From the human T2T-CHM13v2.0 reference genome, Homo sapiens, in assembly GCF_009914755.1 (NCBI RefSeq), contig NC_060929.1: a stretch of 64,000 bases of DNA; one strand, written 5' to 3'. Positions 57,088 to 58,027 of this stretch are shown here, piece after piece; the stretch's first letter is position 1; each line of letters begins with the position of its first letter. The notes under the pieces were generated by a model. It ran no database searches. It saw nothing but the letters and a program-made list of their open reading frames with translations, and was not told where the DNA came from. A program made the translations under genes and the position numbers.

Positions 57088-58025
57088 TTTTTTTTTTTTT
57101 TTTTTGGTACCCAATTTCTTTATGTGAAGGAATGGTACAAATCAAAGAACTTAAGTGGATGTTTTGGTACAACTTATAGAAAAGGTAAAGGAAACCCCAA
57201 CATGCATGCACTGCCTTGGTGACCAGGGAAGTCACCCCACGGCTATGGGGAAATTAGCCTGAGGCTTAGCTTTCATTATCACTGTCTCCCAGGGTGTGCT
57301 GGTCAAAGAGATATTCCGCCAAGCTAGATTCGGGTGCTCCCATCTTGCACAAGTTGGTCATGTGGTCACCCAATTCTTTGATGGCTTTGACCTGCTCATT
57401 CAGGTAATGTGTCTCAATGAAGTCACACAAATGGGGGTCATTTTTGTCAGTGGCCAGTTTGTGCAGTTCCAGTAGTGACTGATTCACATTTTTTTCCAAA
57501 TGTAATGCACACTCCATCGCATTCAGCCCGCTCTCCCAGTCATCACAGTCCGGTTTCTTGATATCCTGAAGGAAGATTCGGCCACCTCCTTGGTTCTGCA
57601 GCTTCATCAGTTTCTCAGCATGTTCCCTCTCCTCATGAGATTGGTGAAGAAAGTATTTGGCAAAGTTCTTCAAAGCCACATCATCGCGGTCAAAGTAGTA
57701 AGACATGGACAGGTAAACGCAGGAGGCGTAGAGCTCCAGGTTGATCTGGCGGTTGATGGCGGCCTTTAGTCCTGGTGGTAGTCCTGGCGCACCTGTGAGG
57801 TGGACGCGGTCGTCATGGCGGCGACTAAGGAGAGGCGGCTGCGTTCGCGGTGGTGACTGCGCAGTGCTGGAGCGGCGGCGGGGGCCTTGGGGCAGTCCGA
57901 GGGCGCGGTGAGGAGGTGACGGAGGGCTGGCTATGGGCAGCCGGCCGGTGTGGGGGACGAGCGCCAGGTTCTGTCCAAGCACTGTTGAAGCAGGAAACCC
58001 CGACGACTCTCGTGGAAGAACGTCC
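57088..58025 (-). pseudogene. FTH1: Full-length FTH1 (ferritin heavy chain) processed pseudogene (possibly FTH1P10, unverified)
   Basis: Intronless 5'UTR + CDS + 3'UTR + poly(A) (T run 57088-57105); TSD atctc(tt/tc)(c/t)actttt at 57078 / 58026. The native ATG at 57816 reads [16 protein letters not shown] then TAA because of a -1 indel. The downstream frame [12 protein letters not shown]...TLGDSDNES differs from remembered FTH1 at about 6 of 165 aa. Symbol is the parent gene. Confidence 0.97.
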
Positions 58026-58027
58026 AT
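57266..58027 (-). CDS. Candidate 253-aa ORF: 88-aa 5'UTR-derived leader fused to FTH1 residues 19-183 (expression unproven)
   Basis: Uninterrupted in the ORF track; true ATG at the TSD/insert junction in gagATGG context; ends at the native FTH1 stop. Confidence 0.25.
57966..58001 (-). promoter_or_regulatory. Iron-responsive element (IRE) inherited from the FTH1 5'UTR
   Basis: Minus strand GGGGTTTCCTGCTTCAACAGTGCTTGGACAGAACCT: CAGUGC loop, 5-bp upper stem and UGC/C bulge intact; lower-stem changes only. Confidence 0.85.

What the first reader, a model, noticed from the sequence alone, without database searches (positions are those of the whole stretch)
57266..58027. FTH1 retrocopy rebuilt into an FTMT-like architecture: new ATG, 5'UTR-derived leader, intact ferroxidase body
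Seen in sequence: the native FTH1 start (57816) is killed after 16 codons by a -1 indel (GAC TCA GAG becomes GAC TAA AG). An ATG formed exactly at the 5' insertion junction (AT from the target-site duplication plus G of the insert, 58027-58025, good Kozak gagATGG) opens a stop-free frame through the whole former 5'UTR. The same -1 indel places that frame in register with FTH1 from Ala19 to the native stop. The product is 253 aa: an 88-aa Pro/Arg/Ser-rich, acid-poor leader plus a ferritin four-helix bundle. It keeps the ferroxidase ligands (E27, Y34, E61, E62, H65, E107, Q141, conventional numbering) and the NCOA4-binding Arg in INRQ. Established knowledge: mitochondrial ferritin FTMT is an intronless FTH1-derived retrogene whose targeting leader corresponds to the former 5'UTR/IRE region. 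Inference: this may be a latent or nascent second instance of that route to a retargeted ferritin. A GC-rich UTR is often open by chance, and no promoter is proven.
Basis: partly seen in the sequence, partly recalled or inferred. Interest (0 to 1): 0.8.

Follow-up and report, generated by a model that had tools for sequence, protein, structure and literature searches.

The report
FTH1P10 pseudogene with chance 253-codon ORF
This is the known human ferritin heavy-chain processed pseudogene FTH1P10; its long open reading frame is real but looks like an accident of a stop-free GC-rich leader and one lucky deletion, not a new working ferritin gene.

Summary
On the minus strand, 58027..57266 is a 253-codon ATG-to-TAA frame. 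Its start ATG lies at the 5' insertion junction. A 1-base deletion at native codon 17 kills the native ORF and joins the 5'UTR frame to the ferritin frame from Ala19. All seven ferroxidase ligands and the NCOA4 contact residues are kept.

The functional reading is not supported.
- The leader frame is already stop-free in the parental FTH1 5'UTR and in 8 of 13 full-length human retrocopies. Random sequence of that composition leaves a given frame open 47-61% of the time.
- Changes on the FTH1P10 lineage in the ferritin body are 6 non-synonymous to 2-3 synonymous. That fits neutrality and matches 12 sibling copies, 168:94.
- The AATAAA signal is now CATAAA. The upstream DNA is AT-rich with an Alu-like element and no CpG island.
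- The first 20 leader residues have net charge -1 and weak amphipathicity, unlike the FTMT presequence.
- FTMT reads its leader in the native frame, not this one.

A 2020 review already tabulates "253aa (95.78%)" for FTH1P10. Ape orthologues, transcripts and peptides could not be checked.

The parts
58026..58039 (-). 5' copy of the target-site duplication (AAAAGTAGAGAGAT). It is preceded by TT, so the site reads TT/AAAA. Its last two bases are the AT of the new ATG.
   Evidence: It matches the 3' copy at 12 of 14 bases.
58025..58027 (-). Junction ATG that opens the 253-codon frame, in the context gagATGG.
   Evidence: The RefSeq pseudogene span given by the hub starts at 58024, one base inside.
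57106..58025 (-). FTH1P10 retrocopy. It is a full-length copy of the spliced FTH1 mRNA from the transcription start to the poly(A) site.
   Evidence: It is 96.3% identical to the mRNA rebuilt from the chr11 exons, and all three exon junctions are fused.
57764..58027 (-). Leader-coding part of the ORF (codons 1-88). It comprises the former 5'UTR (208 nt), the first 16 native codons read one base off, and the joint.
   Evidence: No Pfam family matched it.
57966..58000 (-). Iron-responsive element inherited from FTH1. It now lies inside the ORF, at about codons 10-21.
   Evidence: Rfam IRE_I, 42.5 bits against a gathering score of 34, E 6.2e-08. There are two changes in the lower stem.
57814..57816 (-). 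Native FTH1 start codon. It is still ATG.
57766..57768 (-). TAA that ends the native frame after 16 codons. It marks the site of the 1-base deletion plus G>A change that brings the leader frame into register with FTH1.
57269..57763 (-). Ferritin body, FTH1 Ala19 to Ser183 (ORF residues 89-253). It has 6 replacements and no indel.
   Evidence: Pfam PF00210 matches residues 89-226 with E 1.2e-35.
57266..57268 (-). Native FTH1 stop codon (TAA), used by the ORF.
57119..57124 (-). Poly(A) signal hexamer. The parent has AATAAA and FTH1P10 has CATAAA.
   Evidence: One search compared. It is listed as an A>C change on the FTH1P10 lineage (column 981).
57088..57105 (-). Poly(A) tail remnant of 18 A.
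57078..57091 (-). 3' copy of the target-site duplication (AAAAGTGAAGAGAT). Its first four A overlap the end of the A run.
57931..58188 (-). Out-of-frame 85-codon ORF that overlaps the junction ATG. Its internal ATG at 58086-58084 is the nearest upstream ATG. The junction ATG would therefore be the first AUG only for a transcript starting within 58083-58028.
58304..58616 (-). Alu-like element in the same orientation, 280-590 nt upstream of the ATG. The rest of the upstream 2.5 kb has 23-47% G+C.
   Evidence: I recognised it as Alu from the recalled consensus. One search also gave a sub-threshold mir-3135 hit at 58355-58400. No repeat-masking tool was run.

Best explanation
The locus is FTH1P10, an L1-mediated processed pseudogene made from a full-length FTH1 mRNA. 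The 253-codon ORF is a by-product of neutral decay.

The FTH1 5'UTR is 73% G+C and has one frame with no stop codon. The insertion, or a later A>G change, left an ATG in that frame at the junction. A single 1-base deletion at codon 17 destroyed the native ORF and spliced the open UTR frame onto the ferritin frame. The copy has taken only 8-9 substitutions and no further indel in the 495-nt body, so the body still reads through to the native stop.

Nothing indicates that the ORF is maintained, expressed from a promoter of its own, or directed to mitochondria.

Shown here: the anatomy, the inherited open frame, the neutral substitution pattern, the sibling copies and the chance estimates. Inferred: that the locus is not translated to any useful degree.
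For: Retrocopy hallmarks
- Three exon junctions are fused. The 5' end lies at the parental start site, about 30 nt below the TATAAGAG box. There is an 18-A tail and a 14-nt duplication matching at 12 of 14.

Open leader frame
- The frame used by the leader has 0 stops in the parent 5'UTR and in 8 of 13 full-length copies.
- A given frame is stop-free in 47% of mono-shuffles and 61% of first-order Markov sequences of that composition.
- Database records P0002, P0003 and P0004 are translations of the parental FTH1 promoter, UTR and exon 1 in the same frame, open for 187-253 codons.
- P0005 is an independent record with an ATG-led UTR leader fused ahead of the native Met.

Sibling copies
- L006 and L009 keep the full 183-aa ORF.
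- L007 has a 223-codon stop-free frame that also joins a UTR frame to the ferritin body through a 1-base deletion, but it lacks an upstream ATG.
- So 3 of 13 copies keep at least 165 ferritin codons open.

Substitution pattern
- Body changes on the FTH1P10 lineage are 6 non-synonymous to 2 synonymous with a plain consensus, or 6 to 3 with a CpG-corrected ancestor.
- For the 6-of-8 count, the neutral expectation is 70-79% non-synonymous, with P(>=6 of 8) = 0.54-0.77. At omega 0.1 the probability is 0.0008-0.006, and at omega 0.2 it is 0.014-0.067.
- Over the whole CDS the count is 8:4, against 168:94 pooled over the 12 siblings.
- The substitution rate in the body (8/495) is no lower than in the 3'UTR (2/160).

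Expression signals
- AATAAA has become CATAAA.
- 7 of 29 ancestral UTR CpGs are lost.
- Upstream DNA has 23-47% G+C, contains an Alu-like element, and has an out-of-frame upstream ATG whose ORF overlaps the start.
- The hub's RefSeq table lists no CAGE cluster or transcript here.

Leader
- In the first 20 residues the net charge is -1 (D2, E7), and the maximum helical moment is 0.28. FTMT gives +3, no acidic residue, and 0.53.

Chance estimate
- In the simulation, an extended ORF arose in 2.3-3.1% of neutral runs once the junction ATG was present.
Against: - The ORF is intact in this assembly. It has a good start context (G at -3, G at +4), all seven ferroxidase ligands, and the NCOA4-contact residues A19, N22, R23, L27, Y30, R80, F82, K87, D90 and V111. 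A functional product is therefore not excluded by sequence.
- With only 8-9 substitutions, moderate constraint (omega about 0.5) cannot be rejected (P 0.19-0.43).
- The identical protein heads a 90%-identity cluster of 15 member sequences whose sources are not shown. If some are other species, the frame is kept beyond this genome. I could not test that.
- Several expression studies list FTH1P10, so some transcription is possible.
- N-terminal fusions to H-ferritin are among the solved structures matched (for example 7ke5, 8wiq, 9ivp, by entry names). An N-terminal extension need not block shell assembly.
- The presequence measures are crude, because no dedicated predictor was available.
- The joint event is rare per copy: a junction ATG in the right frame, the right kind of indel, and no later damage. 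It is unsurprising only because the genome holds thousands of retrocopies, a number I recall rather than measured, and because the case was picked after the fact.
Confidence: 0.85

Rival explanations
1. FTH1P10 is transcribed and acts as RNA. It would be a decoy for iron-regulatory proteins through its retained IRE, or for microRNAs that target FTH1. The ORF would be incidental.
For: - The IRE still scores above Rfam's gathering threshold, 42.5 against 34 bits.
- The 2020 review proposes IRE and microRNA competition for expressed FTH1 pseudogenes and marks FTH1P10 as 'validated'.
- FTH1P10 appears in 15 papers' expression lists.
Against: - The 'validation' is a microarray in which nine FTH1 pseudogenes fall together. 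That is what cross-hybridisation with FTH1 mRNA would give.
- In the polysome study the reads assigned to FTH1P10 simply behave like ferritin mRNA, at log2 -2.0 next to FTLP3 at -1.6.
- At 96% identity to a very abundant mRNA, mis-mapping is likely.
- No promoter signal was seen, and the poly(A) hexamer is weakened.
- The published competing-RNA work concerns FTH1P2, P8, P11 and P16, not P10.
Confidence: 0.08
2. FTH1P10 is a young protein-coding retrogene. It would make an N-terminally extended H-type ferritin subunit that joins cytosolic shells or is sent elsewhere. The first reader's version is mitochondrial, like FTMT.
For: - The ORF is intact at 253 codons, with a good start context, seven of seven ferroxidase ligands and retained NCOA4 contacts.
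- The overall leader is basic (10 R+K against 4 D+E) and rich in Pro, Ser and Thr.
- FTMT and FTHL17 show that FTH1 retrocopies can become genes.
- Solved N-terminal ferritin fusions exist.
Against: - The replacement pattern is neutral and the same as in dead siblings.
- The leader frame needed no evolution.
- Residues 2 and 7 are acidic, net charge is 0 over the first 30 residues, and the helical moment is weak against FTMT's.
- The leader is in a different frame from FTMT's.
- The leader abuts A19 at the edge of the NCOA4 cleft, where the bulky A19Y replacement abolishes binding.
- No promoter was seen, the poly(A) signal is weakened, and upstream AUGs lie out of frame.
- The review states that no polypeptide from any FTH1 pseudogene has been shown.
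- My searches for FTH1P with Ribo-seq found 0 papers, and for 'FTH1 pseudogene' with peptide and translated found 3 irrelevant papers.
Confidence: 0.05

Closest known systems
Other human FTH1 processed pseudogenes. The names come from the review's table by chromosome band: FTH1P16 = L006 on chr11, FTH1P4 = L009 on chr3, FTH1P11 = L007 on chr8.
   Same: They are full-length L1-type copies of the same mRNA, 92-97% identical to it, with duplications and A tails. Most keep the same open UTR frame. Two keep the whole 183-aa ORF, and one has a similar UTR-to-body read-through. Their ratio of replacement to silent changes is similar.
   Different: Only FTH1P10 combines an in-frame ATG at the junction with the right frameshift, which gives an ATG-led 253-aa ORF. 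At its 5' end it has G where all 12 other copies have A.
FTMT, mitochondrial ferritin (chr5, L021 1308-2036, 242 aa)
   Same: It is an intronless FTH1-derived copy whose ORF carries an N-terminal extension ahead of a complete ferroxidase body. Part of that extension is collinear with the 3' part of the FTH1 5'UTR.
   Different: - FTMT's extension continues the native frame, with no frameshift. It has no acidic residue in the first 30 residues, a net charge of +4, and a strong amphipathic moment.
- FTMT is far older, at 75% DNA identity to FTH1.
- According to the papers, it is expressed, imported and cleaved (passages).
- FTH1P10 shows none of these.
FTHL17 family (chrX copies, L023-L028)
   Same: They are FTH1-like intronless copies. 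One of them, L024, holds a 204-aa ORF with its own N-terminal extension.
   Different: The family is much more diverged, at 71-73% DNA identity. The papers report it as testis- or germ-cell-expressed and lacking ferroxidase activity (passages).

Membership tests
L1-mediated processed pseudogene of FTH1 | Collinear with the spliced mRNA, all introns absent | tested here: met
   One continuous match runs across the three exon junctions of the chr11 gene, at 96.3% identity over 917 nt.
L1-mediated processed pseudogene of FTH1 | Poly(A) tail directly after the parental poly(A) site | tested here: met
   There are 18 A after GGTACC.
L1-mediated processed pseudogene of FTH1 | Flanking target-site duplication at a TT/AAAA-type site | tested here: met
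   The duplication is 14 nt and matches at 12 of 14. The consensus of the L1 endonuclease site is recalled.
L1-mediated processed pseudogene of FTH1 | Parental reading frame disabled | tested here: met
   A 1-base deletion leads to TAA after 16 codons.
Ferritin-like domain, H-type ferroxidase (as sequence only) | Pfam PF00210 match and the seven ferroxidase-centre ligands | tested here: met
   E 1.2e-35, residues 89-226; E, Y, E, E, H, E, Q all kept. Activity was not tested.
FTMT-type functional retrogene (retargeted ferritin) | One ORF with an N-terminal extension ahead of the ferritin body | tested here: met
FTMT-type functional retrogene (retargeted ferritin) | Extension has the character of a mitochondrial presequence: basic, free of acidic residues and amphipathic at the N-terminus | tested here: not met
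   Net charge is -1 over 20 residues, with D2 and E7, and the moment is 0.28 against FTMT's 0.53. These are crude measures, and no dedicated predictor was available. The AlphaFold model was too poor to add anything (mean pLDDT 51.7).
FTMT-type functional retrogene (retargeted ferritin) | Purifying selection on the coding body | tested here: not met
   The ratio is 6 non-synonymous to 2-3 synonymous. Omega of 0.1 or below is rejected, and omega 1 fits.
FTMT-type functional retrogene (retargeted ferritin) | Own promoter, transcript and protein | not testable with these tools
   Only indirect evidence is available: AT-rich upstream DNA, no CAGE cluster in the hub's table, and a CATAAA hexamer. 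The papers give no specific evidence.
FTMT-type functional retrogene (retargeted ferritin) | Frame kept in orthologues | not testable with these tools
   No primate genome is held. The 15-member cluster names no sources.
Rfam IRE_I (RF00037) | Score above the gathering threshold with the CAGUG loop and the C bulge | tested here: met
   The score is 42.5 bits against 34, with two non-standard pairs in the lower stem.

The most novel reading that the evidence does not exclude
FTH1P10 is transcribed at a low level in some tissue from a start just upstream of the junction ATG. It would yield an H-ferritin subunit with an 88-residue disordered, proline-rich N-terminal tail. That subunit would co-assemble into ferritin shells, display the tail on the outer surface, and change NCOA4 recognition or localisation. 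This would be a young primate-specific ferritin variant born from a UTR frame.
Probability: 0.04. Interest if true: 0.55.

Novelty: already known. Interest (0 to 1): 0.12.

Why it matters
As it stands, this is a worked example of how a long, plausible ORF arises in a dead retrocopy without selection. It needs only a GC-rich UTR frame that was never closed, a junction ATG and one frameshift.

It also warns that this FTH1 UTR frame fools automatic gene calling. A UniRef 'Ferritin' entry of 333 aa from another primate reads it.

If the ORF were translated after all, it would be a second FTH1 retrocopy to gain an N-terminal extension, and a very young one. That would be of interest for gene birth and for ferritin turnover. 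Nothing found here points that way.

Tried and rejected
- The bacterial sigma-70 and terminator scan of the upstream region does not apply to a human locus, and I give it no weight.
- AlphaFold2 on a 5-row alignment gave a poor model, with mean pLDDT 51.7 and pTM 0.36. It shows no secondary structure in residues 1-84 at pLDDT 35-45, but it is too weak to use. No fold search was run on it.
- A leader-only protein search was meant to find primate orthologues. It returned only the identical cluster and translations of the parental FTH1 locus. The 'shorter' search gave one unrelated-locus record. Conservation therefore stays untested.
- The local alignment of the whole FTH1 5'UTR to the FTMT leader region was not significant on its own: 38 of 300 shuffles reached the score. 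Only the extension of the long CDS alignment reaches into the UTR.
- Literature searches for translation evidence found nothing relevant. 'FTH1 pseudogene' with peptide and translated gave 3 papers, none relevant by title or abstract. FTH1P with Ribo-seq gave 0 papers.
- I considered and dropped the idea that the 3-nt longer UTR reflects selection for frame. It lies in the GCC repeat, where the copies differ in length.
- One alignment call failed on wrong coordinates and was corrected.

Full report
**What is there**

On the minus strand, 58027..57266 is a 253-codon ORF that runs from ATG to TAA. It lies inside FTH1P10, which the hub's RefSeq table places at 57106-58024. A search of the window's own genome with this stretch found the following:
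- the intron-containing parent on contig C11, as four exon matches;
- twelve other near-full-length copies, L002-L013;
- FTMT on C5 (L021);
- the chrX FTHL17-like copies.

I merged the chr11 loci and joined the exons at their GT-AG borders. This gave the parental mRNA of 917 nt, with a 205-nt 5'UTR and a 183-aa CDS. FTH1P10 is 96.3% identical to it over the full length.

**Retrocopy hallmarks**

The copy starts at the parental transcription start, which reads ccaGACGTTC about 30 nt below a TATAAGAG box. It ends at the parental poly(A) site with 18 A. It is flanked by AAAAGTAGAGAGAT (5') and AAAAGTGAAGAGAT (3'), which match at 12 of 14, at a TT/AAAA site.

All 12 other copies have A just before GACG, and 11 of the 12 have G one base further 5'. 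The parent has C at that second place. An untemplated G from reverse transcription of the cap is a known feature of L1-type copies; that is recalled, not tested. FTH1P10 has ...GAGAT-G-GACG. Whether that G dates from the insertion or from a later A>G change cannot be told.

**How the ORF is built**

The alignment with the parent and siblings shows GACTCAGAGGCC changed to GACT-AAAGGCC. The deletion ends the native frame at TAA (57768-57766) after 16 codons. It also puts the frame that starts one base before the native ATG into register with FTH1 from Ala19 (Met = 1).

The product has two parts:
- 88 leader residues, which match no Pfam family;
- residues 89-253, which align to solved human H-ferritin end to end and to PF00210.

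Differences from FTH1 are E18K at the joint and Y33C, R77G, V153M, R157C, G165S and K173Q. The seven ferroxidase ligands are unchanged. The NCOA4 contact residues named in a 2024 structural paper are A19, N22, R23, L27, Y30, R80, F82, K87, D90 and V111 (passages read). All are kept. However, the leader joins directly at A19, the edge of the cleft, where a bulky replacement abolishes binding.

The FTH1 IRE survives at 57966-58000 (Rfam, 42.5 bits against 34) and now lies inside the ORF.

**Is it more than chance?**

*The leader frame.*
- It has no stop in the parental 5'UTR and none in 8 of 13 full-length copies.
- Random sequences with the UTR's composition (98 C, 52 G, 32 T, 23 A) leave a given frame stop-free in 47% (shuffles) to 61% (first-order Markov) of trials.
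- The same frame is open far beyond the UTR at the parental locus. Records P0002, P0003 and P0004 are translations of FTH1 promoter, UTR and exon 1 in that frame. One is a UniRef 'Ferritin' entry of 333 aa from another primate.
- P0005 is an independent 108-aa record in which an ATG-led UTR leader is fused ahead of the native Met.

*The body.*
- On the FTH1P10 lineage it carries 8 substitutions against a plain consensus (6 non-synonymous, 2 synonymous).
- Against a CpG-corrected ancestor it carries 9 (6 and 3). There is no indel.
- Eight substitutions leave it stop-free with probability 0.68-0.75.

*The siblings.*
- L006 and L009 keep the full 183-aa ORF.
- L007 has a 223-codon stop-free frame that also links a UTR frame to the body through a 1-base deletion, but without an upstream ATG.

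*The simulation.* I ran neutral drift at the observed level (mean 29 substitutions, 1.5-3 indels), starting with the junction ATG in place.
- The native ORF survived in 8-20% of runs.
- The body stayed open in 15-29%.
- An extended ORF of 200 aa or more ending in the ferritin body arose in 2.3-3.1%.

The extra need for an in-frame junction ATG makes the whole event rare per copy, but not across the thousands of human retrocopies. That number is recalled.

**Selection**

- Six of 8 body changes are non-synonymous. Neutrality predicts 70-79%, with P(>=6 of 8) = 0.54-0.77.
- Omega 0.1 gives P 0.0008-0.006, omega 0.2 gives 0.014-0.067, and omega 0.5 gives 0.19-0.43. Strong constraint is therefore rejected and moderate constraint is not.
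- Over the whole CDS, FTH1P10 has 8 non-synonymous to 4 synonymous changes. The 12 siblings pooled have 168 to 94, plus 16 changes scored singly as stops.
- The body's rate (8/495) is not lower than the 3'UTR's (2/160).
- Outside the CpG-dense UTR, the lineage has about 2% change (15/712). At commonly quoted primate rates, which I recall, that places the insertion some tens of millions of years ago. The copy is thus probably shared with other apes, but this was not tested.

**Expression signals**

- The poly(A) hexamer has changed from AATAAA to CATAAA.
- The UTR has lost 7 of 29 ancestral CpGs, much like its siblings.
- The 2.5 kb upstream has 23-47% G+C, holds an Alu-like element at 58304-58616, and shows no CpG island.
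- The nearest upstream ATG (58086-58084) is out of frame. It belongs to an 85-codon ORF that overlaps the start. Only a transcript beginning within a 56-nt window would make the junction ATG the first AUG.
- The hub's table lists no CAGE cluster or transcript here.
- In print, FTH1P10 occurs in 15 papers. I read passages in three.
  - In a microarray study it falls together with eight other FTH1 pseudogenes.
  - In a polysome study its reads are depleted from polysomes (log2 -2.0), next to an FTL pseudogene.
  - Both results are what mis-assigned ferritin mRNA would give.
  - The 2020 review states that no polypeptide from any FTH1 pseudogene has been shown.

**The FTMT comparison**

FTMT (L021 1308-2036, 242 aa) is described as an intronless FTH1-derived gene with a long cleaved targeting sequence (passages). 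None of the passages I saw derives its leader from the 5'UTR.

A sensitive alignment carries FTH1-FTMT homology from the CDS back to mRNA position 123. The last ~83 nt of the UTR therefore correspond to the C-terminal third of the FTMT leader, in the native frame. The IRE region shows no detectable similarity. FTH1P10 reads the homologous DNA one base off, so the two leaders are unrelated as peptides.

By simple measures the FTMT leader looks like a presequence and the FTH1P10 leader does not:

| Measure | FTMT | FTH1P10 |
|---|---|---|
| Net charge, first 20 residues | +3 | -1 |
| Acidic residues near the N-terminus | none in the first 30 | D2 and E7 |
| Maximum helical moment | 0.53 | 0.28 |

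The AlphaFold model was too poor to add to this.

**Prior knowledge**

Table 1 of the 2020 review 'FTH1 Pseudogenes in Cancer and Cell Metabolism' (PMC7760355; table and sections 3-4 read) lists FTH1P10 with a putative protein of '253aa (95.78%)'. It lists 183 aa for FTH1P4 and FTH1P16. The ORF is therefore in print. The dissection of how it arose, and the comparison with FTMT, did not appear in what I read.

**Verdict**

Rival readings are an RNA-level role (0.08) and a young coding retrogene (0.05; the mitochondrial version is a small part of that). The decisive tests lie outside these tools: the primate orthologues, human variation, paralog-specific transcripts, footprints and peptides.

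Noticed in passing
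L007 (G000:C8:81953114-81954020, minus): Another FTH1 retrocopy has a 223-codon stop-free frame. It runs from the 5'UTR through a 1-base deletion (TCTTA-TACTTT) into the ferritin frame and on to the native stop. It has no upstream ATG, and its longest ATG-led ORF is 113 aa.
   Followed up: partly
P0004 (UniRef A0A8D2FH06_THEGE, 333 aa), P0002, P0003: These database 'proteins' are translations of the parental FTH1 promoter, 5'UTR and exon 1 in the -1 frame. The UniRef 'Ferritin' entry joins that frame to exon 2, so it looks like a mis-built gene model.
   Followed up: partly
P0005 (108 aa, unnamed source): This record has an ATG-led leader from the same FTH1 UTR frame, fused ahead of an intact native Met and N-terminus. 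It is an independent case of a UTR-extended ferritin ORF.
   Followed up: no
5' ends of L002-L013: Eleven of 12 other full-length FTH1 retrocopies carry a G before the first transcribed A, where the gene has C. This is consistent with a cap-derived extra G. L011 instead starts further upstream (gccaGACG).
   Followed up: partly
L024 1381-1992 (+) (G000:C23, about 33.745 Mb): A chrX FTHL17-like copy holds a 204-aa ORF with its own N-terminal extension ahead of a ferritin-like body. It is 52% identical to the FTH1P10 ORF.
   Followed up: no
window 58355-58400 (+): A sub-threshold Rfam hit to mir-3135 (29.1 bits against a gathering score of 80) lies inside the Alu-like element upstream of FTH1P10. 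It is most likely just Alu sequence.
   Followed up: no
FTH1 parent mRNA against the copy consensus: The parent differs from the consensus of its retrocopies at a few sites, for example UTR column 68 (T against C) and CDS column 538 (A against G). These are either changes on the parental lineage after the copies were made or shared CpG decay in the copies.
   Followed up: no
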